DNA from: Escherichia phage vB_EcoM_JNE01
Length of the DNA stretch: 64,000 bases
Sequence record: OR670491
Strand: one strand, 5' to 3'
This document shows positions 25,266 to 38,328 of this stretch, one piece after another (positions within the stretch are counted from its first letter, which is position 1; each line of letters begins with the position of its first letter). The translations under genes and the position numbers were made by a program. The notes beneath the pieces were generated by a model. The model worked only from the letters and a program-made list of their open reading frames with translations. It was not told the origin of the DNA and searched no databases.

Positions 25266-26684
25266 ATGAGCATTCTATCTATTATCGAAAACATTAAAAG
25301 TGTTAGCAGTACCCTTGGCAAGAAAGCTATCCTGGAAGAGAACAAAGATAATGAAACTCTCAAGAAAGTACTGAAATATACACTAGACCCTAGTATTGTA
25401 AGTGGCTATAAGAAGCTACCAGAAGCCCATGACGCATCTCAACATATGTCATTGGATGAAGCTATAGATAAGCTGGAATGCATCTATAAGCGTGATGTGA
25501 CGGGCCATGCAGGGCGTGATTTCATTGCTTCAGTACTGGGTAGTGTAAGTCCAGATGATGCTGAAGTTATTCGTAAGATGCTTACCAAGAACCTAGATTG
25601 TGGTATTCAAGAGAAGAACTGTAACGATGTATTCGGTAAAGGTTTCATCAAAGATGAACCATATATGCGTTGTTCTTTGCTTGATAAAAAGACTGTTAAG
25701 AACATCAACTTCAAAGGTCATGGTTATGCTGTCTCCGAGGTCAAAATGGATGGCACTTACCTGAACCACGTAGTTATCAATGGTTCTCTTACTTCTTCCT
25801 CCCGTAATGGTAAACTATATGACTTCTTAGGTTGTCGTGATGGTGAGATGGCAGGTCTTGCACATCAAATCCAAATGAATGATGATCGTTTTAGTAGTGG
25901 CGTAGTCTTTATGGGCGAAGGTCTAGTACTTGATAATGACGGTGAAACTATTCTCCCACGCACAACTGGTAATGGTATCATCCAGAAAGCTGGGAAAGAC
26001 AGTATCAACCAAAATGAAGCAATGCGTACTGTATTTGTCCTGTGGGATGTTGTTCCTTATGATGCATTCTGCGACGGTACATGGAACGTAAAACGTAAAG
26101 AACGTCGTGAACTGCTTGAAAATGCAATCAATGCATTGGGTAGTGAATTTGTCCGTATGGTGAAATACCGTAAGGTTAAAAACATCAAAGAAGCATTTGA
26201 GTACAATAACGAACTCATGGAACAGGGTGAAGAAGGTTCAGTACTGAAATGTGAAGATGGTGTCTGGAAATCACATACGTCTCCTAAGCAGTTGAAAGTA
26301 AAACTAAAAATGCAATTGGATTTGCGTATTGTTGGCTTCAACGAAGGTGAAGGTAAACGTAAAGGTTCACTTGGTTCTTTACAACTCGAAAGTGCATGTG
26401 GTACACTAAAAGTAAATGTAGGAACAGGTATCAAAGAGAAAGATGCAGAGTGGACATTCAAAACCATTTGGGAACGAATGCAAGAACTAATTGGTAAAGT
26501 CGTTACCGTTGAGTGTAATGAAATAGTTATTGACAGTAAAACTGGTGAACCATCACTATTTTTACCAGTGTTTATTGAATTTAGATTTGACAAAAACACG
26601 TGTGACGATTATACTCGTATCTTAGAAATTCGTGATAGTGCTGTTGAGGTGTTCTCTAACAGTATCATTGAATCAATAGCTTAA
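25266..26684 (+). CDS. ATP-dependent DNA ligase (T4 gp30-like)
   Basis: N-terminus ...KKAILEENKDNETLKKV... resembles T4 ligase; motif I KMDGTY. Confidence 0.8.
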   Translation: MSILSIIENIKSVSSTLGKKAILEENKDNETLKKVLKYTLDPSIVSGYKKLPEAHDASQHMSLDEAIDKLECIYKRDVTGHAGRDFIASVLGSVSPDDAEVIRKMLTKNLDCGIQEKNCNDVFGKGFIKDEPYMRCSLLDKKTVKNINFKGHGYAVSEVKMDGTYLNHVVINGSLTSSSRNGKLYDFLGCRDGEMAGLAHQIQMNDDRFSSGVVFMGEGLVLDNDGETILPRTTGNGIIQKAGKDSINQNEAMRTVFVLWDVVPYDAFCDGTWNVKRKERRELLENAINALGSEFVRMVKYRKVKNIKEAFEYNNELMEQGEEGSVLKCEDGVWKSHTSPKQLKVKLKMQLDLRIVGFNEGEGKRKGSLGSLQLESACGTLKVNVGTGIKEKDAEWTFKTIWERMQELIGKVVTVECNEIVIDSKTGEPSLFLPVFIEFRFDKNTCDDYTRILEIRDSAVEVFSNSIIESIA

Positions 26685-26702
26685 CCTTATCTGGAGGTAA
26701 TT

Positions 26703-27494
26703 ATGAAATTTGTTGTAACATCTGACGTACACGGTGGAACTAATTACCTCCATAGCGGTGATTACAGTGACGTAGTACTGATCATTGCTGGTGACTTTGA
26801 CGAAGTAAAGCGTAGTCGTTATCGTACCGGAATCGAAGAACTGTGTAAGCAGTTCTATAAGGTAGTACTGGTTCCTGGGAATCACGAATACTACGGTTCC
26901 AATATCCAAAAGACGCATCAAGTACTGTCCACTATGCAGGATGAGATTCCTAATTTCATCTTCCTACAAAACAAGTTCCAGTTCATTGGTGATGTACTGC
27001 TCGTTGGTAGTACTCTGTGGACTGACTTTGATAAAGGTAATTCACTGGTTAAGTTTGATGCTAAGATGAAGATGAATGATTACAAACACATTCGTCATGG
27101 CACTACGTCTGAACCTTGGCGTAAGAAGCTGACCCCTGAAGATACTGAGTTCATGCACCATCAGGATAAACAATTCATCAAGAATGCGATTTGTAGTGCT
27201 CGTTTGATGAGTGGTGATGATATTAAAGTACTGGTAGTTACTCACCACGCACCGAGTTACCAAAGTGTATCTCCACGATATAAGAATGATTCACTGAATG
27301 GCTGTTACTGTTCTGATATGGATCAGTTCATCGAAGATGTAGGAGCAGATGTATGGGTACATGGTCACGTACATAGCAGCTTTGACTACAATATCGGAAA
27401 GACACGTATTATTTGTAACCCAAAAGGTTATGAGTCATTTAGTGGTGCATCTGAGAACTTCGACTACAATCCACAATTTGTATTTGAAATCTAG
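26703..27494 (+). CDS. calcineurin-like metallophosphoesterase
   Basis: Motifs SDVHGG, GDFDE, GNHEY, THHAP, GHVHS. Confidence 0.7.
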   Translation: MKFVVTSDVHGGTNYLHSGDYSDVVLIIAGDFDEVKRSRYRTGIEELCKQFYKVVLVPGNHEYYGSNIQKTHQVLSTMQDEIPNFIFLQNKFQFIGDVLLVGSTLWTDFDKGNSLVKFDAKMKMNDYKHIRHGTTSEPWRKKLTPEDTEFMHHQDKQFIKNAICSARLMSGDDIKVLVVTHHAPSYQSVSPRYKNDSLNGCYCSDMDQFIEDVGADVWVHGHVHSSFDYNIGKTRIICNPKGYESFSGASENFDYNPQFVFEI

Positions 27495-27502
27495 GAGTCA
27501 AA

Positions 27503-27901
27503 ATGTCCATAACTTGCTTTACTTTTTCACCTGATGTCAGCGAGATTGTTCGTGTGTATCAGGTTAATTACCAGGTTAATTACCAGGGACGACCCACTAC
27601 TGATTCGTTTTTGGTAATGTCGGCTAACAAGGTAACTACTTTTTATCGTCATCAAGACCCATTTGTTATAAAAGACCGATATGGTATACGTGGAAATAAA
27701 GAACCGCCTATCAGTACTCATACTGGTATTGTACTGGTATGTGTACCGACTAGAGACTATATGTTCAGTACTGAAACTATTCAACAGCAAACATTAAACA
27801 TGGCAGCTTCACGTTCACGTGGAATGTATATTCGTGTAAATTTAGATGACATTGACCCTGGTTTGCGTTATGATTATATTAATGCGTTAGGGAGATTGTG
27901 A
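27503..27901 (+). CDS. hypothetical protein (132 aa) containing 12-bp tandem repeat
   Basis: ORF; QVNYQVNYQ encoded by duplicated CAGGTTAATTAC. Confidence 0.45.
   Translation: MSITCFTFSPDVSEIVRVYQVNYQVNYQGRPTTDSFLVMSANKVTTFYRHQDPFVIKDRYGIRGNKEPPISTHTGIVLVCVPTRDYMFSTETIQQQTLNMAASRSRGMYIRVNLDDIDPGLRYDYINALGRL
27560..27587 (+). repeat. direct tandem repeat (2 x 12 bp CAGGTTAATTAC + partial)
   Basis: Seen directly in sequence. Confidence 0.8.
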
Positions 27902-28308
27902 TAGTGATTAAATTAGATATGGATATCACACAACTAACACTACGCAAGGATAAGAAGATTTCATATGTTATGATGTTTGATGAAGTCTTTGCTAACAAGT
28001 TGACTGGGTGTGCAATAGAAATTCAAACTTTCTTCATTAATGATGACAGCGTTTATGTTAGTCAAGGTGGTCAGCGTGGATGGTTTGATGAGGTATTCAT
28101 GCAACCATATGATATTCAACCAAGTTATGACTACTACTTTTTAGTACCTGGTGATTATGGAACTGTTATGATTGATGATATCACTGACAGTTGTTATACA
28201 GATTCATTAAAACGCTTGACATTTATGAAGTTTGATCCTACAATGTTTAACAAGTTCACAGTTTACTATCTAGCCGAAGTATTTGATGAAATGATGAAAA
28301 AAGGCTAG
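27898..28308 (+). CDS. hypothetical protein (136 aa)
   Basis: ORF with GTG start after GGGAG. Confidence 0.45.
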   Translation: MIVIKLDMDITQLTLRKDKKISYVMMFDEVFANKLTGCAIEIQTFFINDDSVYVSQGGQRGWFDEVFMQPYDIQPSYDYYFLVPGDYGTVMIDDITDSCYTDSLKRLTFMKFDPTMFNKFTVYYLAEVFDEMMKKG

Positions 28309-28364
28309 ACAAACCAAATCAACGTGATATAATACTCACACATTAACAGCAGAGGAAATTAACA

Positions 28365-29060
28365 ATGGTTGAACAATTTATGTTTGGTGGTTATGCAAAT
28401 GGTGAAGTACGTAACATTTCTATTCCTTATGTTGTAGAAAAAGTTAACGGTTCAGAACGCACATATGACTTGGCATCTCGTATGATGCAAGACCGTATCC
28501 TATTCTTGGATACCGATTTCAACGACCAGATGGCACACATTATCAAACAACAATTGGTATGGCTTGATTCACAAGGTGATTCTCCAATCACTATGTATAT
28601 CTCGTCCCCAGGCGGTTCAGTTCACGCTGGTTTGGGTATTGCTGATGTTGCAAAATCCTGTATCTCTCCAATTCGTACTGTTGTTATGGGTTATGCTGCT
28701 TCTATGGGTTGCTATACTCAATCAGTACTGGGTACTAAGGGTTATCGTCTAGGTGGTAAGCGTTCATTCTTCATGTGTCACCAAGTAAGTTCTGGTACAC
28801 AGGGTTTGATTACTGACCAGAAGATTTCTTTGAGGCATTCTGACTCTCTGAACACGCTTCTAACGAAAGAAATCGCTGAAGCAGTAGGTGTGTCTCATGA
28901 ACAACTTCTGAAAGACGCAGACCGTGATTTGTGGCTAAATGCAGAAGAAGCACTTGAGTACGGCGAACATGGTTTCATTGATGGTATCATCCTTGGGCCA
29001 CGTGATGAAGCTGGTAAGTACCTTGTTAAGCGTCGTGGCGGCGTGGAAGAGTGGGTGTAA
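28365..29060 (+). CDS. clpP: ATP-dependent Clp protease proteolytic subunit (ClpP-like)
   Basis: SPGGSV, catalytic-Ser motif GYAASMG, His motif MCHQVSSG, Asp region RDLWLNAEEALEYG. Confidence 0.8.
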   Translation: MVEQFMFGGYANGEVRNISIPYVVEKVNGSERTYDLASRMMQDRILFLDTDFNDQMAHIIKQQLVWLDSQGDSPITMYISSPGGSVHAGLGIADVAKSCISPIRTVVMGYAASMGCYTQSVLGTKGYRLGGKRSFFMCHQVSSGTQGLITDQKISLRHSDSLNTLLTKEIAEAVGVSHEQLLKDADRDLWLNAEEALEYGEHGFIDGIILGPRDEAGKYLVKRRGGVEEWV

Positions 29061-29073
29061 TTGGTTGAGTATT

Positions 29074-29092
29074 GTGCCTCGAATTGAGGCAC
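29074..29092 (+). terminator. hairpin, possible terminator (weak T-tract)
   Basis: GTGCCTC-GAATT-GAGGCAC. Confidence 0.35.
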
Positions 29093-29122
29093 ATTATTGA
29101 TATTTTATTGAGGTAATTTCAA

Positions 29123-29407
29123 ATGACAAAAGTACTCGTTCGTAATAACAGTACTGAAGAAGTTCAAGTACTCGATGATTCAGAATTCATTGATGTAGCA
29201 CTAACTCAAATGTCCGAAGCTGCATTGTCAGTTAAAGGATGTACACAGTCTGAAGAACTGCTTGATGGTTTAGCTGTAGTTCTTGAACTAATGCAAGAAG
29301 TACTTGCAAAAAATAACATCAATCCAATTAACGTTGTGACACATGCAACCAATCTACGTAATGAGTTTGGTTCATTCAGTGACAAAAAAGCATCCACTAA
29401 AGAATAA
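29123..29407 (+). CDS. hypothetical protein (94 aa)
   Basis: ORF. Confidence 0.5.
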   Translation: MTKVLVRNNSTEEVQVLDDSEFIDVALTQMSEAALSVKGCTQSEELLDGLAVVLELMQEVLAKNNINPINVVTHATNLRNEFGSFSDKKASTKE

Positions 29408-29421
29408 GGAATAATAAGACA

Positions 29422-29865
29422 ATGGCTAATGATCAATACAAAGATGGACTAGAAGCATTCAAAGCAAAAGTAGTTCTAACTAATGAACAACTAAAAATGC
29501 AGCATCCACGATTCCGTCAGGGTTATCGTTCTGCACAAGAAGCAGCGATGAAGAAAAACAATCCAACGTTCCCTACAGCATTGTTTGATATTCCTAAACG
29601 TCCTGAAGTGTTTAAGGTCGAATGGACAGACATTATGGCTGCGACCAAACGACCTCGTTTTGCAAAACTTCATACCGATGAAGGTCGCTGGATGCTCATG
29701 GAAATCATGAAAGCAGTAGAAAAACAAGCCGACAAAATCGTTCGTTATAAAGATGTAGTGAATATGGTAGACAAAGCGTTTAACATTATCCTACAGTACG
29801 GTTACGATGAAGGTGTACTGACCGTAACTGATTGCGAACAGTACGATTTCGTACCAGTACAATAA
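29422..29865 (+). CDS. hypothetical protein (147 aa)
   Basis: ORF. Confidence 0.5.
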   Translation: MANDQYKDGLEAFKAKVVLTNEQLKMQHPRFRQGYRSAQEAAMKKNNPTFPTALFDIPKRPEVFKVEWTDIMAATKRPRFAKLHTDEGRWMLMEIMKAVEKQADKIVRYKDVVNMVDKAFNIILQYGYDEGVLTVTDCEQYDFVPVQ

Positions 29866-30013
29866 TCTTTTAAGGGAGTCTTTATGGCTCCCTATTCTCA
29901 TATGAGGAATATATGGAACTTTTAGTGCGGATATACATAAATCATTGTACAAAAATTGTCACTTTTGGGGTAAATACCGAAGGGTAACAGTTTTATAACA
30001 AGGTAGGTGGCAT

Positions 30014-30529
30014 ATGCAACACAAACTAAGTGAAGATCAAAGTGATGTTTTCTTACACCATATGTTTATAATTGATAAGTTTTTTGAGGGATTAAATGCG
30101 GAAGCAACTGCAATAATTAAGAAGTGGTATAAAGCTTATAAAAGAAATAAGAAATGGTATTGGTTGAATCGTGATATGGATTCTTTTATCCGAAAAATCA
30201 CATACAAAGACACCATAGAATTGAAACGTAGTTCTATGGGTTATAGCTATCTTTCTAAAACTCACGAAGAATCATGGAATATTGGGGTTAAAGTATCCGT
30301 TGTAGTTGATATGACCGGATTACCACAATCTGTTATCCAGGAAGAAACTGAGAAGTTATGGAAGATAGTAGAGTTCATGCACGATAACATTTCATTCGTT
30401 TATAAGAATTTCGATGCTTTTACTGACATAAAAGCGTACAATAGAAGCCCATATGTTCTTAGTGATAAACTTTATCATCACATGGAACTATGTAAGGCTT
30501 ATGTGAAGGAATGGAATCTAGAGGAATAA
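30014..30529 (+). CDS. hypothetical protein (171 aa)
   Basis: ORF after ~150 bp intergenic gap. Confidence 0.5.
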   Translation: MQHKLSEDQSDVFLHHMFIIDKFFEGLNAEATAIIKKWYKAYKRNKKWYWLNRDMDSFIRKITYKDTIELKRSSMGYSYLSKTHEESWNIGVKVSVVVDMTGLPQSVIQEETEKLWKIVEFMHDNISFVYKNFDAFTDIKAYNRSPYVLSDKLYHHMELCKAYVKEWNLEE

Positions 30530-30530
30530 A

Positions 30531-31055
30531 ATGAAATATACAGTACTGTCAGCACAAGACACAGAGATATGGCTTGGTAACGTATTAAAAACACTGATGG
30601 TTATAAAGAAGTTGATTTCATCTATCGGTGCTATTGAGACTAATCTCAAGCAAGATATCTTAAATGACTTCCACCGAAACGCGTACATGAAGTTCTACTC
30701 CAATATGTTCTATGGACTTTATGATTCTGATGATATCTGCATTTTTCCAAGTGGGAAAGCATGGTCATTAAACAGTGCATGTTTCAGTGATCTAAGGTAC
30801 AGTTTAACCCAAGAACAAGTGGATGCAAGAAAATACTTGGAACAAATCATGGATGATGGTACAATTACTTTCGTATCGGAAATCAGTCATTGCTGGAATG
30901 TCTATGCAGACAAACCATTCAATATTTCAGAAGAAGATATCATCAATTACACCCGCATCATGAGAATTCATGAATGTGTTAAAATGGCATTAAAAGATAT
31001 AGGACTATACGATGAAGCATGTAACTTGGATGAAGATAGCAGAAGTAGTAGCTGA
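30531..31055 (+). CDS. hypothetical protein (174 aa)
   Basis: ORF. Confidence 0.5.
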   Translation: MKYTVLSAQDTEIWLGNVLKTLMVIKKLISSIGAIETNLKQDILNDFHRNAYMKFYSNMFYGLYDSDDICIFPSGKAWSLNSACFSDLRYSLTQEQVDARKYLEQIMDDGTITFVSEISHCWNVYADKPFNISEEDIINYTRIMRIHECVKMALKDIGLYDEACNLDEDSRSSS

Positions 31056-31488
31056 GGAAAGTAAGTGTCTTTCCCAGCACGTAGGTTGTGTAATCGTCAA
31101 GAATGACCGAGTGTTAAGTACTGGATACAATGGTACTCCATCTAAGCAGGTAAACTGTTGTGATGCGAATGCAAATTTGGTTCACGATGGTAAGTTTCAA
31201 GATTGGGTATCTGAGGATGCAAAACATGAACACCATGAGTGGAGTAATCTCCATGAGATTCATGCTGAGATGAATGCAATTCTTTACAGTTCTCCTACAG
31301 AACGTCAAGGTGCAACACTTTACAGTACTCTCCAACCGTGTTATACTTGTTCTAAGTTAATCGCTGGAAGTGGTATTAAGCGTGTTATCTATATGAAAAG
31401 CTACCCAAGAACTCCAGCAGAAGCCATCAAAGTACTGGAAGATGCTGGGATTGAAGTTAACTGTATTTTTGACATGGGATTAAAATAA
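31012..31488 (+). CDS. cd: dCMP deaminase
   Basis: ESKC..VGCVIV..TGYNG..VNCCD..HAEMNAIL..PCYTCSKLIAGSGIKRV; zinc-binding HAE/PCxxC deaminase motifs as in T4 Cd. Confidence 0.8.
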   Translation: MKHVTWMKIAEVVAEESKCLSQHVGCVIVKNDRVLSTGYNGTPSKQVNCCDANANLVHDGKFQDWVSEDAKHEHHEWSNLHEIHAEMNAILYSSPTERQGATLYSTLQPCYTCSKLIAGSGIKRVIYMKSYPRTPAEAIKVLEDAGIEVNCIFDMGLK

Positions 31489-31787
31489 TGATTCAAGCTT
31501 TTGTTTTTCTTGGTCTGGGGTCGTTCTTACTAATCGTGTGGGTTATTGTTTGTTCTATCATATCAGTAACTGACAGTCCACATAAGATTAAAAAATATGA
31601 GGTTCGTTATGAACCAAAAAACAATAAGTACTATATCGTTCGAACATTCTGCTACTTAGATAAAGAAGAACGCATTCGTGGACGTTTGAGACTAACGATT
31701 TATTATAAAGATATCTCGAAAGCATCATATGTGTGTGAATTACTGAATAAAGATTACAGTGCGATTTCTGGTAATACTGAACTATAA
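31488..31787 (+). CDS. membrane protein (99 aa, N-terminal TM)
   Basis: Hydrophobic FVFLGLGSFLLIVWVIVCSIISV. Confidence 0.5.
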   Translation: MIQAFVFLGLGSFLLIVWVIVCSIISVTDSPHKIKKYEVRYEPKNNKYYIVRTFCYLDKEERIRGRLRLTIYYKDISKASYVCELLNKDYSAISGNTEL

Positions 31788-31795
31788 AAGAAAAA

Positions 31796-31817
31796 GGAGC
31801 CATAAGGCTCCTTTTTT
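31796..31817 (+). terminator. rho-independent terminator
   Basis: GGAGCC-ATAA-GGCTCC then TTTTTT. Confidence 0.75.
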
Positions 31818-31939
31818 GTTATTTAAAAACTATGAATGTAAATGTTAATAGAATGGTCTATTTGTGAAAAATTGGTACATTAGAAGTACTGTAATGTAGT
31901 TATATCTCACCCTGTTCGTTAAGAGATAATAAATTTAGT

Positions 31940-31968
31940 TTGACTTAAGGGAAACTTCCATGTATCAT
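31940..31968 (+). promoter_or_regulatory. sigma70-like promoter (TTGACT-17-TATCAT)
   Basis: Hexamers with 17-nt spacer seen in sequence. Confidence 0.45.
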
Positions 31969-32022
31969 TACTTCATCGTCTTAGAAACACATGGCGATTG
32001 ATGCACAAGTGAACTATAAGTG

Positions 32023-32051
32023 TTGACTTATGGCAAATCTAGTGATACAAT
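32023..32051 (+). promoter_or_regulatory. sigma70-like promoter (TTGACT-17-TACAAT)
   Basis: Hexamers with 17-nt spacer; ~45 nt upstream of ATG 32093. Confidence 0.5.
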
Positions 32052-32092
32052 GCAAGAAACAACATAAAGAGGGCAAAAAAGTGTATCGATTC

Positions 32093-32692
32093 ATGAAGGA
32101 AGTGTTTCAAGCAGTTATCGTTATGATGCTTATCAATTTCCCATGCAGTGCAGGTGTGGAACGAACAAGTGTCATGCGATATTATGAGGAACCTAATGCT
32201 CTGGTGGTTATATCAGAGTTAACGGATGGTTCTGCTGACCGTATAATCAATTTTTACGATAAGACCCCATTCAAAACATTAATCATTACATCTCCAGGTG
32301 GGAGTGTAGATGCAGGTCTGAAATTGGGTTCTTTAGTGAAAGAAAATGGAATTCAAGTGATTGTTGTAAAGTACTGCAACTCTGCATGTTCCCTCGTGTA
32401 CTTCAGTTCACCGAAGGATAAGAGACTAATGGAAGATGATTCAGTACTTGGACTACATAACGTTTCAATTGAAAGCAAAGGGGGTGATGGTGATAACACT
32501 TATGTGACTATTCGACAGTTGAAGCAGTTCACAGAGGAATTGTCATCTAAAGTAGGTTTTATGTTTACGTTGTACGCCAGTAATGGTATTCCTACAAACG
32601 TACTAATGCGTATCGCAACTGCACGTGGTGATGATGTAATTGTTGTCACTAAAAAAGAATTAGAAGTTTGGGAAGCATCAATCCCTGACTGA
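32093..32692 (+). CDS. secreted ClpP/S49-like serine peptidase (putative)
   Basis: Signal-like N-terminus MKEVFQAVIVMMLINFPCSAG; TSPGGSV; CNSACS and GLHNVS motifs resembling ClpP Ser/His regions. Confidence 0.5.
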   Translation: MKEVFQAVIVMMLINFPCSAGVERTSVMRYYEEPNALVVISELTDGSADRIINFYDKTPFKTLIITSPGGSVDAGLKLGSLVKENGIQVIVVKYCNSACSLVYFSSPKDKRLMEDDSVLGLHNVSIESKGGDGDNTYVTIRQLKQFTEELSSKVGFMFTLYASNGIPTNVLMRIATARGDDVIVVTKKELEVWEASIPD

Positions 32693-32765
32693 TTATAATT
32701 ACAAGAGGATGATATGTGTTGTACTCCCCTTGTAAAAAACATATAAAATACACTGGGATATTAAT

Positions 32766-33026
32766 ATGAGCACATTGCTTGATTGGATTTCAATCCTTTA
32801 TTATTCAATTTTAGTTTTATACAGTTTCACTATTCTACTTTCCGTTGGAATGTATAAAGAATTTCGTAATGGTTTTTTGAATGAAAAAACTAATAAGTTT
32901 GCTTCTAAATTCGAAGCAGTACTTTATTATTGTTTAGCTTCTGGATACATTACCTGTTTAGTACTAATGGGTATTCTTATGTATTTTATGGGAACCATTT
33001 TACAAGTTCTTCCATCTCTAAGTTAA
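32766..33026 (+). CDS. membrane protein (86 aa)
   Basis: Two to three hydrophobic segments. Confidence 0.5.
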   Translation: MSTLLDWISILYYSILVLYSFTILLSVGMYKEFRNGFLNEKTNKFASKFEAVLYYCLASGYITCLVLMGILMYFMGTILQVLPSLS

Positions 33027-33032
33027 GTGAAT

Positions 33033-33058
33033 AAAAAAGGGAGCATAAGCTCCCTTTT
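33033..33058. terminator. bidirectional terminator
   Basis: AAAAAA-GGGAGC-ATAA-GCTCCC-TTTT between convergent genes. Confidence 0.7.
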
Positions 33059-33063
33059 CTAAT

Positions 33064-33972
33064 TTAAGCTGCACTTACAACATAAGTACATTCAGCAGTA
33101 TGTGAACCATCAACTGTAGTTACGATAACACTAGCATTACCTTCACCAACTAATGTCACTAAACCTGCATTTGATACAGTAAGAACTTCATCGTTAGTAC
33201 TTGACCATACAACATCTTTGTTAGCTGCATTTACTGGGAGTACAGTTGCAATTAGTGTTTCGGTTCCACCAATTGGGCCATTACTTGATGTTTTACTTAA
33301 AGTAACACCAGTAACTGGGGTATTGACAACATATGCACAAGATGCTACTTTAGAACCATCAACTGTTGTTGCGTTGACTGTTGCTGAACCGTTACCAACT
33401 AGAGTTACTAATCCAGAATTAGACACGGTGAGTACTGCGTCATTAGTACTTGACCATACAACTGATTTATTTGTTGCATTTTCAGGTAATACAGTTGCAA
33501 CTAGTGTTTCAGAACCACCAATCTGACCATTACTAGAATTTTTATTCAATGAAATACTTTCGACTGGAACAACAACTGCGACATACTTAGTCGCGTACTT
33601 ACCAGTTTGTACTTCATTGCCATTAGTAAGAATTACTTTATGGGTGAAAAATTTATATGCAAAACCGAGTGCTTCCATAGTTGTTGCATCATAAACTTTA
33701 ACAGCGAATTCATCACGACCAAGTGCACTTGCAATTTCTTGGGCAGTGGCTGATAAATCAAGTAGGTTACGATTTTTATCTCGACCAACCATTGATACTC
33801 TTTGATAAACAGTAGTTGAATCACTATCAACTAAGTCAAACATGCGAGTACTACACTCGTTGATAATGTATAGTTCTTTATCAATTTCTTGAGCACTGTG
33901 ATCAGTTGCTGCAAAAACACAGATACCACCAACGTTGAATGGCAATTCACCAAATTTAGCTATAGGCTTCAT
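33064..33972 (-). CDS. Ig-like (Big_2 repeat) domain protein, Hoc/decoration- or tail-like
   Basis: Only reverse-strand gene; two ~85-aa repeats ...GGSETL.ATVLP.NA.NK.VVWSSTND.VLTVSN.GLVTLVG.G.A.V..TTVDGS...; AGGAG RBS. Confidence 0.6.
   Translation of the reverse strand: MKPIAKFGELPFNVGGICVFAATDHSAQEIDKELYIINECSTRMFDLVDSDSTTVYQRVSMVGRDKNRNLLDLSATAQEIASALGRDEFAVKVYDATTMEALGFAYKFFTHKVILTNGNEVQTGKYATKYVAVVVPVESISLNKNSSNGQIGGSETLVATVLPENATNKSVVWSSTNDAVLTVSNSGLVTLVGNGSATVNATTVDGSKVASCAYVVNTPVTGVTLSKTSSNGPIGGTETLIATVLPVNAANKDVVWSSTNDEVLTVSNAGLVTLVGEGNASVIVTTVDGSHTAECTYVVSAA
33100..33620 (-). repeat. tandem duplication (~255 bp period) encoding two Ig-like domains
   Basis: Repeated peptide blocks in both the - frame and the + shadow frame. 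Confidence 0.5.
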
Positions 33973-34003
33973 TTGCTTCTCCTATCAATAGAATTATTTT
34001 AAT

Positions 34004-34011
34004 TATTTATA
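34004..34011 (-). promoter_or_regulatory. T4-type late promoter motif TATAAATA (reverse strand)
   Basis: Exact TATAAATA ~32 nt upstream of the reverse-strand ATG at 33972. Confidence 0.5.
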
Positions 34012-34020
34012 AAATTCAGG

Positions 34021-34049
34021 TTGACAAACATCAACAATCCTAATACAAT
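34021..34049 (+). promoter_or_regulatory. sigma70-like promoter (TTGACA-17-TACAAT)
   Basis: Consensus -35 and near-consensus -10 with 17-nt spacer, ~30 nt upstream of ATG 34081. Confidence 0.6.
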
Positions 34050-34080
34050 AGTACTAAATCCAACCGAATAGGAATAAGAC

Positions 34081-34683
34081 ATGACTTGCATCATCGCTCA
34101 CGCAACACGTACTTCATCGTTTATTGCTGCTGACAAGTTAGGTAGCAATAACTTTACAAAAGCAATCCAATCTGAGCCAAAGATCTTTGAGAAAGAGTTC
34201 GATTCTCGTGTATTGGAAGAAGGGTTTATCCCAACAATTCACAAAGATACCATGACAATCGGATACACTACATCGTTCCGTATGGGACAGTTGTTGGAAC
34301 ATTGTCTTGTTCTACCAGAGAAGCAACCAACCCAATCGTTCAAGGAATATCTAGTACAATCAGTAGTTCCAGCTATCCGCACTTTATTCCGTGAAGAATG
34401 GGGTTCTCGTGCCGATAATCAAGATGTAGGTGGTGGTCAGTTCATCATCCTTCATAAGCACAAGATCTATGAAATTCATGAAGACTTCTGTGTACTTGAA
34501 CCAAAAAACAACATCAGTGCAGTTGGTAGTGGTGCATATCATGCAATTGCAGCAATGGCAGCTTATCTAACAGTTGAAACTGAAACTGAAGTTCCATTGG
34601 TTGACCGTATTGGTTCGATCTTTGATATCGTCAGCGATCATGTTGTTAGCGTGAGTTTTGAGCATGACATTCTAAAATACTAA
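34081..34683 (+). CDS. HslV/proteasome-beta-like Ntn hydrolase (putative)
   Basis: Thr at position 2 (MTCIIA...) and ...ISAVGSGAYHAIAAMAAYL resembling HslV GSGG.YA.AAA.AL region. Confidence 0.45.
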   Translation: MTCIIAHATRTSSFIAADKLGSNNFTKAIQSEPKIFEKEFDSRVLEEGFIPTIHKDTMTIGYTTSFRMGQLLEHCLVLPEKQPTQSFKEYLVQSVVPAIRTLFREEWGSRADNQDVGGGQFIILHKHKIYEIHEDFCVLEPKNNISAVGSGAYHAIAAMAAYLTVETETEVPLVDRIGSIFDIVSDHVVSVSFEHDILKY

Positions 34684-34711
34684 TAGGTGCACTAATATAA
34701 TAAGAGAGTAC

Positions 34712-34906
34712 ATGATGACATGGGATATTCTTGACATTGTTTTGCAGTTCTTGATGATTTTGATTGCAGTTGTTTGGTACAATCACATTGTTCTGTTATA
34801 TAATGAAGTTCGTAGTACTAAAGCAGATAAACATTTGACGTACCACATTTCAATCATCGTAAGTGCTTCAATTGTTCTTCTAACGAACTATTTGTTTGCA
34901 CGTTGA
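34712..34906 (+). CDS. small membrane protein (64 aa)
   Basis: Two hydrophobic segments. Confidence 0.45.
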   Translation: MMTWDILDIVLQFLMILIAVVWYNHIVLLYNEVRSTKADKHLTYHISIIVSASIVLLTNYLFAR

Positions 34907-34917
34907 AAGGTCAACAT

Positions 34918-35670
34918 ATGTCTACACAATCCTTTTTAGAAAAAGCAGGGGAAAAACGTTTACTGATAATCAGCGGGGCTGGGTTATCGGTTGAAAGTGG
35001 GATGGAGCCATTTCGTTTTGATGATGGCTTATGGGATAACTTTCAAATCAATGACGTGTGTAATATTGCACGTCTTAGTTCCAAATATCATATAGTACAT
35101 GCATTCTATAATACTCTAAGAGTAAAATTAGGTTCGTGTGAACCAAATGCAATGCACTATTACATCAAATCATTAGAGGATCAGTACAAAGATAATTTCT
35201 TACACATGACCTCCAATATGGATGATTTGTACACTCGAATCGGTGGAACCGAGTTGAAGCTTCATGGTAATCTACGAGAAGTTATTAAAAACTACTCAAT
35301 CAATAGTGATGACTATGAAGTAATTGACTGTGGTTATGAACCGTTCATTCCAGAGACTGATGTGTTCTCTAAACCAAATGTTGTTATGATTGGTGAATAT
35401 CATCGTTATGTGGATGGGAACCGTCTTCCTATCTACGAAGAACGAAATGAAGTGTTGCGTAGTCTTACTGAAAATGATACAGTAATTGTTATTGGGAGCA
35501 GTGATACAGTACTGGTATGGTCCAGACTAGCTGGGGCGTTACCTTGTTATAGTGTTACTGTTAACGTCAGAAAGAATGACAATGACTTCCTATTCAATGA
35601 ACGTATCATTAAGCCAGCAACTAAAGCAATTCCAGTACTGGAGCCAATCATTAAGGAAAGAATGAAATGA
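34918..35670 (+). CDS. Sir2-family protein (NAD+-dependent deacylase/ADP-ribosyltransferase/NADase-like), no Zn-ribbon module
   Basis: GAGLSVESGMEPFRFDDGLW, TSNMDDLYTRIGG, KLHGNL, VIVIGSSDTVL match sirtuin motifs; ATG 34918 after GAAAGG. Confidence 0.65.
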   Translation: MSTQSFLEKAGEKRLLIISGAGLSVESGMEPFRFDDGLWDNFQINDVCNIARLSSKYHIVHAFYNTLRVKLGSCEPNAMHYYIKSLEDQYKDNFLHMTSNMDDLYTRIGGTELKLHGNLREVIKNYSINSDDYEVIDCGYEPFIPETDVFSKPNVVMIGEYHRYVDGNRLPIYEERNEVLRSLTENDTVIVIGSSDTVLVWSRLAGALPCYSVTVNVRKNDNDFLFNERIIKPATKAIPVLEPIIKERMK

Positions 35671-36224
35671 GTTTGAGAGAAGTACCACTCGGAGAATTTG
35701 GCAAACAAGCAAACTTTGTATTCTGTTACTTCTTTGCACGAAATTGTAATCCATATGAGAATTACGAGTTGAATGATATTCCAGTAGTTAATCTGGTACT
35801 CCTTCAACTCCGTTGGGATGGGTTGATGGGTGGATGTGGAGGAACAGTTGAAGATTCTGATACTTCACTTGAAGCTGCGTTGAAGCGTGAAATCCAAGAA
35901 GAAATGGATTATAATATTTCCATTGAACAGTTGAAACCTCTAAAGACGTTTGAATTGTTCCCTGGTGCTAACACTCATAGCTTCAGTTATGAAGTCACAT
36001 ATGATGAGTTGAAAGCGATTCGTGACGGGTACAGTACTGCTAAACATGCCAGTGCTGAAGTAGCGGGTGTAAATTTATGTCACATTTCTCGATATTCTAA
36101 GGGAAAAAATCGAGAAGCAGGATATAATAATCTCATGACACAAAACTTCATTGGAACAGCTAAGGAAGAATTGCAGTACTTAGTTGAAAATGAAAACTTA
36201 CTTATCAGTTACTTACAAGGGTAG
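35667..36224 (+). CDS. Nudix-like hydrolase (putative, divergent Nudix box)
   Basis: GGCGGTVEDSDTSLEAALKREIQEEMDY resembles GX5EX7REUXEEXGU with altered spacing. Confidence 0.4.
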   Translation: MSLREVPLGEFGKQANFVFCYFFARNCNPYENYELNDIPVVNLVLLQLRWDGLMGGCGGTVEDSDTSLEAALKREIQEEMDYNISIEQLKPLKTFELFPGANTHSFSYEVTYDELKAIRDGYSTAKHASAEVAGVNLCHISRYSKGKNREAGYNNLMTQNFIGTAKEELQYLVENENLLISYLQG

Positions 36225-36888: not shown

Positions 36889-38328
36889 ATGAAAAAATAT
36901 ACAATTGACACAAACGTACTACTATCTGATCCAAATGCTACCATTGCTTTTGATGGAGCAGCTATCATTCTACCGTTCACAGTACTTGAAGAATTGGATT
37001 CAATCAAAAGTCGTAATGTGGATGTTTCCCGTGATGCTCGTGTTGCAATCCGTAATATTGAAGCAATCCTTTCTGATGCATCACATGAAGAAATTAGTAG
37101 TACTGGTGTTAATATTGCTGATGTTCATACTAATATGAGTCCTGAAAGCAAATTGTTTGTTATTACAAGCGAAGAAGCTGAAGCACTAATTCGCACTGCT
37201 GGTAACGAAGAGAAAGTTCAAACTCTTCTAAAAAGCACAGTACCAGATGATAAAATCATTTTAGTAGCATTAGCAACTGATTCAGTACTGGTTACCCGTG
37301 ATATCAATATGCGTATCAAGGCTCTAAGCTACGGGGTGGAAGTTCAAGATTACCGTCATGATATCGTGATTGGTGATAGTGATTTGATTCACATTGGTCA
37401 ACATCACCTTGACCTACATTTCTGGGATGTGTATAGTAATCTGACTGATGTATCTATTCAGTCTGAACAAGTTGGTCGTCGTTTGTACCACTACATTCCA
37501 AAAAGCTTGATTGAACATATCATGCCACAAAATATTTGCATCGGTGATTACCTATATGATAATGCTGATGTTCTATTTGTGTACGAAGGCCAATCTGCAA
37601 TTGAAGAAGATGATGGTACTTTAACACCAGAAGATATTCTTGTATTCCAAGATATTGGACAATCTGTTGCTCTACGTGCTAAAGTGTGGGATATTAAGGC
37701 TAAGAATATTCAACAAGCACTAGCAATCAACAGTATCCTAGATCCTGATGTTCATCTAACAGTACTGTTGGGTTCCGCAGGTACTGGTAAAACGCTAATT
37801 ACCATTGCGACTGCACTTGAATTGGTTCTTGAGAAGAAGAAATATGACCGTATTATGTTCTCAAAACCACAAGATTCACAATGGGCCGAAATCGGTTTCT
37901 TACCAGGCACTGAAATGGAAAAAATGCTACCACATTGTGGCCCTGCATTGGATGCTTTGGAATTCTTACATAAAGATGATGCATCACCACAAGGTAGTAT
38001 TGAGGAAATAATCAAGCGTAATGTTATTCAGTTCAAAGCATTGAACTTCATTCGCGGTCGTTCATTTACCAACACTATTCTGGTTGTGGATGAGTTTCAG
38101 AACATCACACCTGCTCAGGCTAAGACAATCCTTACCCGTGCTGGCATGAACTGCAAAGTGATTATTCTTGGGAACTTGGCACAGATTGATAGTAAATTCA
38201 TTAGCCCAGTTAACAGCGGCTTAACATATGTTGTTGAGAAATTTAAAAACTGGGATGGTTGTCGAGTAATCGAACTCGAAGGTGTTGTTCGTTCACCACT
38301 GGCAGAATTTGCTGAAGAAAATATGTAA
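36889..38328 (+). CDS. phoH: PhoH-like ATPase with N-terminal PIN domain
   Basis: PIN-like YTIDTNVLLSD...; Walker A LLGSAGTGKTLITIA; Walker B-like ILVVDEFQN. Confidence 0.8.
   Translation: MKKYTIDTNVLLSDPNATIAFDGAAIILPFTVLEELDSIKSRNVDVSRDARVAIRNIEAILSDASHEEISSTGVNIADVHTNMSPESKLFVITSEEAEALIRTAGNEEKVQTLLKSTVPDDKIILVALATDSVLVTRDINMRIKALSYGVEVQDYRHDIVIGDSDLIHIGQHHLDLHFWDVYSNLTDVSIQSEQVGRRLYHYIPKSLIEHIMPQNICIGDYLYDNADVLFVYEGQSAIEEDDGTLTPEDILVFQDIGQSVALRAKVWDIKAKNIQQALAINSILDPDVHLTVLLGSAGTGKTLITIATALELVLEKKKYDRIMFSKPQDSQWAEIGFLPGTEMEKMLPHCGPALDALEFLHKDDASPQGSIEEIIKRNVIQFKALNFIRGRSFTNTILVVDEFQNITPAQAKTILTRAGMNCKVIILGNLAQIDSKFISPVNSGLTYVVEKFKNWDGCRVIELEGVVRSPLAEFAEENM

What the first reader, a model, noticed from the sequence alone, without database searches (positions are those of the whole stretch)
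28365..29060. Phage-encoded ClpP outside any head-morphogenesis context
Clear ClpP Ser/His/Asp motifs, but the gene lies among early/accessory genes with its own terminator and is not next to portal or capsid genes, so a prohead-protease role is not obvious. It may act with host ClpX/ClpA to remodel the host proteome or degrade defence proteins (inference).
Basis: partly seen in the sequence, partly recalled or inferred. Interest (0 to 1): 0.45.

Follow-up and report, generated by a model that had tools for sequence, protein, structure and literature searches.

The report
Jumbo-phage ClpP, not a head protease
This is a real, intact ClpP protease gene of a 350-kb E. coli jumbo phage that is not the capsid-maturation enzyme and most likely works with the phage's own ClpA-like unfoldase, but the gene is already annotated and discussed in the literature, so it is a known, uncharacterised accessory gene.

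Summary
The ORF at 28365-29060 (+, 231 aa) is a genuine ClpP-family serine peptidase. It scores 141 bits on Pfam CLP_protease, is 36% identical to E. coli ClpP, and has the triad S113/H139/D188. The axial gating loop is conserved and dN/dS is 0.03.

The window comes from an Asteriusvirus (121Q/PBECO4, Rak2-like) jumbo phage and is 97% identical to Escherichia phage Turkey5, where this gene is already annotated as ClpP.

Complete relatives carry a T4 gp21-like protease (Peptidase_S77) between portal, scaffold and major capsid genes, about 125 kb away. phAPEC6 virion proteomics lists that protease and no Clp protein.

The unfoldase keeps a ClpP-docking loop (IGL changed to IGM). Both genes lie outside the window. 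In Turkey5 all three genes sit behind host sigma-70-type promoters.

The phage ClpP clade has clade-specific changes in the ATPase-docking pocket (F82 to N/S, L114 to G) and a conserved C-terminal tail.

Best reading: it is the proteolytic core of an early-expressed, phage-encoded ClpA-ClpP(-ClpS) machine whose substrates are unknown. This is known at the annotation and literature level, and of moderate interest.

The parts
28306..28333 (+). Sigma-70-type promoter with extended -10: TAGACA, 16 nt, TGATATAAT
   Evidence: It matches 11 of 12 consensus positions with TG before the -10. TGNTATAAT occurs 17 times in the window against 6.4 expected, and 0 of 100 shuffles reach 17. Five other + strand sites share the nGACA -35 element and sit in front of ORFs. 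The -35 and the GTGATATAATACT box are conserved in 121Q while the spacer has diverged. Promoter function and early timing are inferred, not measured.
28351..28356 (+). Ribosome-binding site AGAGGA, 8 nt before the ATG
   Evidence: Read from the sequence. The stretch AGAGGAAATTAACAATG is invariant in the window, Turkey5 and 121Q.
28365..29060 (+). clpP coding sequence, 231 aa. Residues 1 to about 18 are a variable presequence. Residues 20-48 form the axial gating loop and helix A. Catalytic residues are S113, H139 and D188. Residues from about 210 to 231 form a clade-specific C-terminal tail.
   Evidence: dN/dS is 0.03.
28701..28703 (+). Codon of catalytic Ser113 (motif GYAASMG)
   Evidence: It aligns to E. 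coli Ser97 in mature numbering and is invariant in 68 of 68 clade members.
28779..28781 (+). Codon of catalytic His139
   Evidence: It aligns to E. coli His122 and is invariant in the clade.
28926..28928 (+). Codon of catalytic Asp188 (motif DRD)
   Evidence: It aligns to E. coli Asp171 and is present in 67 of 68 clade members, the exception being a gap.
29073..29093 (+). Terminator-like hairpin: 9-bp stem with 5 G-C pairs and a 3-nt loop, followed by TTATTGATATTTTATT
   Evidence: Found by the terminator scan. MFE is -16.5 kcal/mol, z = -3.5, and 2 of 200 shuffles fold as well. The stem is kept in 121Q with U-A to G-C and G-C to A-U compensatory changes. The T-tract is interrupted, so termination efficiency is unknown.

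Best explanation
The gene encodes a catalytically competent ClpP-family chamber peptidase of an Asteriusvirus (Rak2-like) jumbo phage. It is not the capsid-maturation protease. It is transcribed by host RNA polymerase from its own extended -10 sigma-70-type promoter as a single-gene unit (inferred from sequence). It most likely assembles into the usual double-heptamer barrel and is fed unfolded substrates by the phage's own ClpA-like double-ring AAA+ unfoldase. That unfoldase is encoded about 90 kb away and keeps a ClpP-docking loop (IGM in place of E. coli IGL). A phage ClpS-like adaptor may select substrates. Together these make a phage-encoded ClpA-ClpP(-ClpS) degradation machine active from early infection. 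Shown here: family membership, intact active site and gating loop, purifying selection, separation from the head module, and presence of the ClpA-like and ClpS-like genes in relatives. Inferred: promoter timing, oligomeric state, the ClpA-like partnership and the role of ClpS. Unknown: the substrates, which could be host proteins, defence proteins, or phage early or misfolded proteins.
For: (1) It is a true ClpP. Pfam scores 141 bits. Cellular ClpP models of NCBIfam score about 150 bits, against 52 bits for the ClpP-related head-maturation model. It is 36% identical to E. coli ClpP. The triad and the gating residues P4, V6, E8, E14, R15, D18, R22 and R27 are invariant or nearly so in 68 clade members. 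dN/dS is 0.03.
(2) It is not the head protease. 121Q gp601 matches Peptidase_S77 at 9.9e-21 and lies between portal gp598, scaffold gp602 and Gp23-type capsid gp603. Turkey5 has the same arrangement at 196.7-202.8 kb, with ClpP at 74.4 kb. The text and virion table of the phAPEC6 paper contain no 'Clp', while the prohead protease is listed (PMC7247149). The only T4-type late promoter TATAAATA in the window drives the minus-strand Ig-domain structural gene, not clpP.
(3) The phage has its own partner. The Turkey5 ClpA-like protein aligns over residues 16-739 with E. coli ClpA 19-733 at E 3.7e-180. It has both Walker A/B pairs, the KYR and GYVG pore loops, and IGM at the IGL position (121Q copy).
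(4) A ClpS-like protein is present. It scores 24.7 bits on Pfam ClpS against a cut-off of 23. The top 36 PDB fold matches of its AF2 model are all ClpS, with E. coli ClpS best at TM 0.69 and rmsd 2.2 A. D82, D83, T86, A88 and N114 are invariant in 13 homologues.
(5) The three genes co-occur. ClpP at >=60% identity is found in 69 phage records, ClpA-like in 70 and ClpS-like in 71, in the same genera. At least 12 named phages were seen in all three lists. PA5oct-like Pseudomonas phages have both ClpP and ClpA-like, 11 records each.
(6) The promoters are of the same kind. Turkey5 clpA-like is preceded by TTGACA, 16 nt, TGATATAAT, the same class as clpP. The IF3-clpS pair is preceded by TTGACA, 17 nt, TATAAT.
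(7) Both ClpP and ClpA-like form sharply separated phage clades, >=57% and >=52% identical within the clade and dropping to about 45% and 41% against bacterial proteins. This is consistent with long joint residence in these phages.
Against: The three genes are dispersed (74, 164 and 249 kb in Turkey5) and not in an operon, so the link rests on co-occurrence and shared promoter type. The docking tripeptide in phage ClpA-likes is variable (IGM, MGM, LGL, IGV, MSM, MNM, IGG, IGA), and some variants lack the Gly or the third hydrophobic residue. No co-variation with the ClpP pocket was visible in 10 genome-matched pairs. The ClpP pocket has lost two hydrophobic residues (F82 to N/S, L114 to G), which could weaken docking of any IGL/IGF loop. 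The ClpS-like model has only moderate confidence (mean pLDDT 55, core 62-82). The CBB virion proteome reported one ClpP peptide at 4.5% coverage (PMC5259590). The partner genes were seen in the 97%-identical relative, not in the window itself. No experiment exists on any of these proteins, to my knowledge and in the searched library.
Confidence: 0.6

Rival explanations
1. One reading: the phage ClpP barrel docks onto host ClpX and/or host ClpA. This would boost or redirect host Clp proteolysis towards host or defence proteins, without needing the phage ClpA-like protein.
For: The gating loop that communicates with Clp ATPases is conserved. Ten of the 12 pocket positions listed for E. coli ClpAP (bioRxiv 10.1101/820209) remain hydrophobic or conservative, including Y62. 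Iyer et al. 2021 suggest an anti-host role for jumbo-phage ClpP.
Against: F82 and L114 are hydrophobic in 41 of 44 and 41 of 44 (Leu in 40) of the bacterial ClpPs sampled. They are N/S/G/C and G in 64 of 68 phage-clade members. R192 and Y20 are also not kept. A conserved extra C-terminal tail lies next to the pocket-forming C-terminal strand. A dedicated phage ClpA-like protein co-occurs in essentially all relatives. This reading is not exclusive with the best explanation.
Confidence: 0.2
2. Mixed-barrel or poison subunit: phage ClpP rings stack on, or phage subunits mix into, host ClpP. This would change or block host ClpXP/ClpAP activity, in the manner of ClpP1P2 hetero-complexes, for example to protect phage proteins from host degradation.
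For: The diverged docking pocket resembles the situation in two-paralogue ClpP systems, where only one ring binds the ATPase (my own knowledge of the ClpP1P2 literature; PMC11005422 was listed but not read). The R187-D188 pair of the ring-ring sensor region is conserved.
Against: An invariant catalytic triad under dN/dS 0.03 argues for an active peptidase rather than a poison. At 36% identity to the host ClpP, co-assembly is uncertain. Nothing in the data specifically supports mixing.
Confidence: 0.07
3. Head-maturation protease, as many automated annotations (PHROG 94) call it: ClpP-fold prohead protease that trims scaffold and capsid proteins.
For: The best PHROG hit is phrog_94 'head maturation protease' at 7.9e-44. 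RefSeq 121Q, GAP32 and several GenBank records use that name. One ClpP peptide was seen in CBB virions.
Against: A separate T4 gp21-type protease sits in the head module. The protein scores 52 bits against a cut-off of 120 on the ClpP-related head-maturation model, but about 150 bits on cellular ClpP models. It has the ATPase-facing gating loop, has an early-type promoter rather than a late one, is absent from the phAPEC6 virion list, and keeps a non-structural synteny.
Confidence: 0.03
4. Stand-alone or housekeeping peptidase: ClpP acts without any unfoldase on peptides or unstructured proteins, or simply supplements host proteostasis during the long jumbo-phage cycle alongside the phage GroES-, DnaJ- and HslV-like genes.
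For: The phage carries other proteostasis genes: GroES-like and DnaJ-like genes in 121Q, and an HslV-like and a second ClpP-fold protease within 6 kb of clpP. Attai et al. 2018 propose a general stress-survival role.
Against: ClpP alone degrades only short peptides (established ClpP biochemistry, my own knowledge). Conservation of the gating loop and of a co-occurring ClpA-like protein argues for ATPase-coupled use.
Confidence: 0.1

Closest known systems
Bacterial ClpP (MEROPS S14), e.g. E. coli ClpP in ClpAP/ClpXP
   Same: It has the same fold family, 36% identity, the Ser-His-Asp triad, the SPGG and AASMG motifs, the N-terminal axial gating loop (P4, V6, E8, E14, R15) and the RD pair of the ring sensor. 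Its length is comparable and it has a short presequence.
   Different: It scores below every NCBIfam ClpP equivalog cut-off, about 150 bits against 249-361. Pocket residues F82 and L114 are replaced (S98 and G131 here; N/S and G across the clade). Y20 and R192 are not kept. A conserved C-terminal tail of about 22 aa ending in RR..G..EW[VI] is added. It is encoded by a virus and driven by an early phage promoter.
ClpP genes of other Rak2-like jumbo phages (Turkey5 XMR01696, 121Q gp464, PBECO4, RaK2, GAP32, CBB_104, Atu_ph07 gp676)
   Same: It is the same gene: 99% amino-acid identity to Turkey5, 93-96% to 121Q/PBECO4-type phages and 65-75% to Klebsiella, Erwinia and Cronobacter relatives. Flanking genes are the same.
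   Different: There is nothing substantive. [quoted passage not shown]
ClpP-related phage head-maturation proteases (NCBIfam NF045542; PHROG 94/1684/2976/133)
   Same: It shares the ClpP/crotonase-type fold and the Ser-His catalytic core, and is grouped with them in PHROG 94.
   Different: Those enzymes are encoded next to portal, scaffold and capsid genes and lack the ATPase-facing N-terminal loop (my knowledge). This protein fails the family cut-off (52 against 120 bits), lies 125 kb from the head module, and that module has its own protease.
T4 gp21 prohead core protease (Peptidase_S77)
   Different: It is an unrelated fold and family. The phage has its own copy (121Q gp601; Turkey5 199765-200385) in the canonical position.
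Bacterial ClpAPS N-degron pathway
   Same: All three component types are encoded by the phage lineage. The ClpA-like protein has an N-domain (Clp_N, seen as precomputed Pfam hits in part of the clade), two AAA+ rings and a docking loop. The ClpS-like core superposes on E. coli ClpS. D35 and T38 equivalents of the N-degron pocket are kept.
   Different: The genes are dispersed. The ClpS-like protein has an extra N-terminal region of about 70 aa. Its pocket reads DD..T.A instead of ND..T.M, based on a manual alignment that is uncertain around H66. No biochemical evidence exists.

Membership tests
ClpP family (Pfam PF00574 / MEROPS S14) | Significant match to the family profile above the curated cut-off, over the full domain | tested here: met
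   It scores 141.1 bits against a cut-off of 20.2, over profile positions 2-179 of 182. 104 distinct PDB ClpP chain sequences match at E <= 1e-10.
ClpP family (Pfam PF00574 / MEROPS S14) | Ser-His-Asp catalytic triad at the canonical positions | tested here: met
   S113, H139 and D188 align to E. coli S97, H122 and D171 and are invariant in the clade.
ClpP family (Pfam PF00574 / MEROPS S14) | N-terminal axial gating loop (P4, V6, E8, E14, R15 and partners) | tested here: met
   The segment IPYVVEKVNGSERTYD aligns to VPMVIEQTSRGERSFD. P, V, E, E and R are conserved in 65-67 of 68 clade members. K25 is Q/N/K.
ClpP family (Pfam PF00574 / MEROPS S14) | Hydrophobic IGF/IGL-docking pocket (L23, L48, F49, A52, Y60, Y62, F82, I90, M92, F112, L114, L189; list from bioRxiv 10.1101/820209) | tested here: inconclusive
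   Ten of 12 positions are conservative. F82 becomes S (N/S/G/C in 64 of 68) and L114 becomes G (64 of 68), whereas bacterial sequences keep an aromatic or Leu residue. Whether docking is kept, lost or re-tuned cannot be told from sequence.
ClpP family (Pfam PF00574 / MEROPS S14) | Double-heptamer (tetradecamer) chamber | not testable with these tools
   No multimer prediction is available. Only the R187-D188 ring-sensor pair was seen to be conserved.
Bacterial ClpP equivalog (NCBIfam TIGR00493 / NF001368) | Score above the curated equivalog or subfamily cut-off | tested here: not met
   It scores 150.7 bits against 308.6, and 154 against 249. It is a divergent, phage-specific clade and not an orthologue of the host gene.
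ClpP-related head maturation protease (NCBIfam NF045542; PHROG 94 label) | Score above the curated cut-off of the head-maturation model | tested here: not met
   It scores 51.6 bits against a cut-off of 120. The PHROG 94 hit (7.9e-44) reflects a broad cluster that also holds true ClpPs.
ClpP-related head maturation protease (NCBIfam NF045542; PHROG 94 label) | Encoded within the head module, next to portal, scaffold and major capsid genes | tested here: not met
   There are no head genes in the 64-kb window. In Turkey5 the head module is 125 kb away and has its own S77 protease. The synteny without head genes is kept in distant relatives.
ClpP-related head maturation protease (NCBIfam NF045542; PHROG 94 label) | Late expression and presence in proheads | tested here: inconclusive
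   The sequence shows an early-type promoter and no late TATAAATA box. The phAPEC6 paper's text and virion table contain no 'Clp', but CBB virions gave one peptide. No expression data exist for this phage.
Phage-encoded ClpA-ClpP-ClpS system (proposed here) | Co-encoded Clp/Hsp100 unfoldase with a ClpP-docking loop | tested here: met
   This was shown in relatives, not in the window. The Turkey5 761-aa protein aligns to E. coli ClpA at E 3.7e-180 with IGM at the IGL position. It is present in 70 records at >=60% identity. The loop is retained but variable across 110 clade members.
Phage-encoded ClpA-ClpP-ClpS system (proposed here) | Physical and functional coupling of the phage ClpP with the phage ClpA-like protein | not testable with these tools
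   Only co-occurrence and a shared promoter class are available. No co-variation signal was seen in 10 pairs.

The most novel reading that the evidence does not exclude
The Rak2-like phage ClpP and ClpA-like proteins form an orthogonal, insulated protease pair. The clade-specific pocket changes (F82 to N/S, L114 to G), the extra C-terminal tail and the altered docking loop (IGM/MGM/MSM) would stop cross-talk with host ClpX, ClpA and ClpP. With the divergent ClpS-like adaptor, whose gatekeeper Met is replaced by Ala, the phage would then own a private N-degron degradation pathway. That pathway would be switched on early to destroy selected host or defence proteins.
Probability: 0.2. Interest if true: 0.6.

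Novelty: already known. Interest (0 to 1): 0.3.

Why it matters
If the phage really runs its own ClpA-ClpP-ClpS machine from early infection, this would be a virus bringing a complete regulated-proteolysis system into the cell. Its substrates would show which host proteins, or which of its own, a 350-kb phage needs to remove. A naturally orthogonal ClpAP pair would also be useful for targeted-degradation tools. There is a practical point as well. Many database records, including RefSeq 121Q and GAP32, label this gene 'head maturation protease'. The evidence here shows that label is wrong for this lineage, because the real prohead protease is the T4 gp21-like gene in the head module.

Tried and rejected
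(1) Head-protease reading. It was rejected after locating the S77 protease, scaffold and capsid genes in 121Q and Turkey5 and comparing model scores.

(2) Co-variation between the ClpA-like docking loop and the ClpP pocket.

(3) Gene adjacency of ClpP with an unfoldase in more distant relatives. None was found. The search instead revealed conserved synteny of ligase, Sir2, ClpP, dCMP deaminase and an HslV-like gene.

(4) AF2 single-sequence model of the HslV-like ORF. It was unusable, with pLDDT 35.

(5) Sequence search of the ClpS-like protein against the PDB. No ClpS hit was found. The fold search of the AF2 model was needed instead.

(6) Literature search for experimental work on phage-encoded ClpP. 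Exact-phrase searches returned nothing. Only genomic commentary was found. The PhageExpressionAtlas mention of clpP concerns the host gene, and the PA5oct omics paper does not mention Clp.

(7) Generic promoter scan. The total count of sigma-70-like sites was not above shuffles, 37 against 37.7. Only the specific extended -10 class was used as evidence.

(8) tRNA scan of the window. No tRNA genes were found.
Full report
OBSERVATION

It matches Pfam CLP_protease at E 4.8e-41 (141 bits) across nearly the whole profile. It matches 104 distinct solved ClpP chain sequences at E <= 1e-10. It is 36% identical to E. coli ClpP. The catalytic residues are S113, H139 and D188. In an alignment of 68 members of its clade, 9 intermediate sequences and 44 bacterial ClpPs, the triad is invariant. 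Against the 121Q orthologue the gene is 84% identical in DNA but 96% identical in protein. That gives dN/dS 0.03 at dS 1.2, so it is a working gene.

WHERE THE WINDOW COMES FROM

The region is 97% identical in DNA to Escherichia phage Turkey5 (PQ471516, 351 kb) and about 80-82% identical to 121Q, PBECO4, phAPEC6 and other Asteriusvirus (Rak2-like) jumbo myophages. [quoted passage not shown] Other records call it 'protease' or 'head maturation protease'. The latter name follows PHROG 94, which is also the best PHROG hit here.

IS IT THE HEAD PROTEASE? NO

- The 64-kb window has no recognisable portal, scaffold, capsid or Clp-ATPase gene.
- In 121Q the head module is contiguous. It runs portal gp598, gp601 (Pfam Peptidase_S77, the T4 gp21 family, 9.9e-21), scaffold gp602 and Gp23-type major capsid gp603 (1.3e-89).
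- Turkey5 has the same block at 196.7-202.8 kb, while ClpP is at 74.4 kb.
- Published work agrees. CBB_255 and RaK2 gp092 are the gp21-type proteases (PMC5259590, PMC3622015).
- The text and virion-protein table of the phAPEC6 paper (62 proteins) list the prohead protease and contain no 'Clp' (PMC7247149). CBB virions gave a single ClpP peptide at 4.5% coverage, which is weak.
- NCBIfam models point the same way. Cellular ClpP models score about 150 bits. The 'ClpP-related head maturation protease' model scores 52 bits against a cut-off of 120.
- The protein keeps the N-terminal axial loop that faces the unfoldase in ClpAP/ClpXP. P4, V6, E8, E14, R15, D18, R22 and R27 are conserved in 64-68 of 68 clade members.

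TRANSCRIPTION UNIT

Upstream of the gene lies TAGACA, 16 nt, TGATATAAT (28306-28333), followed by an AGAGGA ribosome-binding site. A generic sigma-70 scan is not enriched over shuffles. The extended -10 motif TGNTATAAT is enriched: 17 sites against 6.4 expected, and no shuffle out of 100 reaches 17. Thirteen sites are on the coding strand. Six of them, including the clpP site, share an nGACA -35 element in front of ORFs.

The -35 and -10 boxes are conserved in 121Q while the spacer has diverged. By contrast the T4-type late promoter TATAAATA occurs once in the window, against 8.4 expected. That single copy is at 34004-34011 on the minus strand, just upstream of the only structural-looking gene, the Ig-domain protein at 33064-33972.

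Downstream of clpP is a hairpin at 29073-29093 (-16.5 kcal/mol, z = -3.5). It is kept in 121Q by two compensatory changes. So clpP looks like a self-contained unit read by host RNA polymerase early in infection. The timing is inferred, not measured.

These phages encode their own Clp partners outside the window.

- ClpA-like unfoldase. 121Q gp581 (762 aa) and the Turkey5 'heat shock protein' (164493-166778) have AAA, AAA_lid_9, AAA_2 and ClpB_D2-small domains. The Turkey5 protein aligns over residues 16-739 with E. coli ClpA 19-733 at E 3.7e-180. It has both Walker A/B pairs and the KYR and GYVG pore loops. At the position of the ClpP-docking IGL tripeptide it has IGM.
- ClpS-like adaptor. 121Q gp48 and Turkey5 249084-249629 encode a 181-aa protein that passes the Pfam ClpS cut-off, 24.7 bits against 23. 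An AF2 model built from 13 homologues has mean pLDDT 55, with the core at 62-82. Its 36 best PDB fold matches are all ClpS structures, E. coli ClpS first (TM 0.69 on the target, rmsd 2.2 A).
- ClpS-like pocket. D82, D83, T86, A88 and N114 are invariant in those homologues. By manual alignment they correspond to the N-degron pocket residues N34, D35, T38 and M40, and possibly H66, of E. coli ClpS. This correspondence is my inference.

CO-OCCURRENCE AND CO-REGULATION

In the phage collection, ClpP at >=60% identity is found in 69 records, the ClpA-like protein in 70 and the ClpS-like protein in 71, in the same genera. At least a dozen named phages appear in all three lists. Examples are 121Q, slurp01, G17, fEgEco12, EC.P1, K64-1, RaK2, XbC2, fHe-Yen9-04, CBB, GAP32 and Turkey5. 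PA5oct-like Pseudomonas phages carry ClpP and ClpA-like (11 records each) but no ClpS-like hit.

Both ClpP and ClpA-like form tight phage clades that drop abruptly to bacterial-level similarity. In Turkey5 the clpA-like gene is an isolated plus-strand gene among minus-strand tail genes. It has TTGACA, 16 nt, TGATATAAT upstream, the same promoter class as clpP. The IF3-clpS pair has a consensus TTGACA, 17 nt, TATAAT.

DOCKING SURFACE

I used the pocket list from the E. coli ClpAP cryo-EM study (bioRxiv 10.1101/820209). Ten of the 12 positions are conservative in the phage protein. Two are changed in a clade-specific way.

- F82 is Y/F/L in 41 of 44 bacterial sequences. It becomes N/S/G/C in 64 of 68 phage-clade members (S98 here).
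- L114 is L in 40 of 44 bacterial sequences. It becomes G in 64 of 68 (G131 here).

Y20 and R192 are also not kept. The clade adds a conserved C-terminal tail of about 22 aa (G.RNE.G.Y.VKRR.G..EW[VI]) after the pocket-forming C-terminal strand. The N-terminal presequence is variable, 4-35 aa.

The docking tripeptide in 110 phage ClpA-likes is retained as a loop but varies: IGM, MGM, LGL, IGV, MSM, MNM, IGG, IGA and VGF. Ten genome-matched pairs showed no clear co-variation. Sequence therefore cannot say whether host ClpX or ClpA can still dock.

BEST EXPLANATION AND RIVALS

The most economical reading is that this ClpP is the proteolytic core of an early-expressed, phage-encoded ClpA-ClpP(-ClpS) machine (confidence about 0.6). 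The conclusion that it is an active ClpP and not the head protease is much firmer, about 0.9.

- Stand-alone or housekeeping peptidase: about 0.1.
- Mixed or poison barrel with host ClpP: about 0.07.
- Head-maturation reading: about 0.03.

Substrates are unknown.

COMPARISON WITH WHAT IS KNOWN, AND NOVELTY

The gene is annotated in dozens of GenBank records. Attai et al. 2018 list ClpP, ClpA, ClpS, ClpX and ClpB homologues in Atu_ph07 and note that ClpA is conserved in Rak2-like phages (PMC6102473). Iyer et al. 2021 single out ClpP as the most prominent patchily distributed peptidase of jumbo phages and consider it probably aimed at the host. They mention phage ClpS and ClpA/ClpX separately (PMC7824862).

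The finding as stated is therefore already known. This analysis adds four things:

- an explicit demonstration that the 'head maturation protease' label is wrong for this lineage;
- the near-universal three-way co-occurrence of ClpP, ClpA-like and ClpS-like genes;
- the shared early promoter class;
- the clade-specific docking-pocket and C-terminal features.

No experimental study of a phage ClpP was found in the searched library.

VERDICT

Novelty: already known. Interest 0.3. The most novel reading not excluded is an insulated, orthogonal phage ClpAPS pathway (probability about 0.2, interest 0.6 if true).

Noticed in passing
window 32081-32692 (+) (a longer ORF runs from 32030): This is a second, very divergent ClpP-fold serine protease of 203 aa. 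It scores 22 bits on Pfam CLP_protease, with weak NfeD/SDH hits, and 4.4e-74 on PHROG 26024 'protease'. It shares the SPGGSV..AGL block and the aligned Ser and His with the focal ClpP. Its N-terminus is hydrophobic and signal-peptide-like (MKEVFQAVIVMMLINFPCSAG), so it may be exported. It is annotated 'protease (ClpP-like)' in 121Q (gp473).
   Followed up: partly
window 34081-34683 (+): This is an HslV/proteasome-like ORF of 200 aa. It matches PHROG 1040 'peptidase HslV family' at 2.6e-21 and NCBIfam HslV only weakly, at 18.9 bits. It starts MT..., so Thr2 could be the N-terminal nucleophile. No HslU-like partner was seen. A 'Proteasome (faint)' ORF keeps the same relative position in distant relatives (L011 6532-7083). 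A single-sequence AF2 model was unusable (pLDDT 35).
   Followed up: partly
window 25266-36224; loci L008, L010 and L011: The gene neighbourhood of ClpP is conserved across relatives whose ClpP is only about 50% identical. It comprises DNA ligase, metallophosphoesterase, Sir2, ClpP, dCMP deaminase, an HslV-like gene and NUDIX. In L010 the Sir2 gene overlaps the clpP start by 26 nt. A functional link between Sir2 (a protein deacylase or NADase) and ClpP is conceivable but untested.
   Followed up: partly
window 34004-34011 (-) and 33064-33972 (-): TATAAATA, the T4-type late promoter, is strongly depleted in the window: 1 site against 8.4 expected. The single copy sits about 32 nt upstream of the only minus-strand gene here, an Ig-domain (Big_2 x2) structural-type protein. 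This is a late structural gene embedded, in the opposite orientation, in an early region.
   Followed up: partly
window-wide, e.g. 6295, 8090, 13854, 28325, 39685, 61426 (+): The extended -10 motif TGATATAAT is enriched: TGNTATAAT occurs 17 times against 6.4 expected, and no shuffle out of 100 reaches 17. It is often paired with an nGACA(A) -35 element 16 nt upstream, in intergenic positions. This looks like the early-promoter class of this phage. The same motif precedes the clpA-like gene in Turkey5 (L005 9425-9453).
   Followed up: partly
window 48157-50856 and 51473-54199 (+); also 58615-61410 (+): Two adjacent ORFs of about 900 aa are paralogues (28% identity, E 6e-68) with no Pfam hit. 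A third ORF of 931 aa nearby is unrelated to them and also has no Pfam hit. They are annotated hypothetical in Turkey5.
   Followed up: partly
window 36889-38328, 38375-39655 and 56643-57896 (+): Other accessory genes are present: a PIN-PhoH fusion (479 aa), a protein with three CapR-homology domains (426 aa), and an RlaP-type RNA-repair nucleotidyltransferase (417 aa). Together with the RNA ligase, 'RNA repair' protein and peptidyl-tRNA hydrolase annotated in Turkey5, they suggest a region rich in RNA-repair or counter-defence functions.
   Followed up: no
database records (121Q NC_025447 gp464, GAP32, E9.1, WPEC5, JP4 and others): The ClpP orthologue is labelled 'head maturation protease' in RefSeq and in Pharokka-style annotations, although the same genomes carry a T4 gp21-like prohead protease in the head module. 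This is a systematic annotation error that propagates from PHROG 94.
   Followed up: yes
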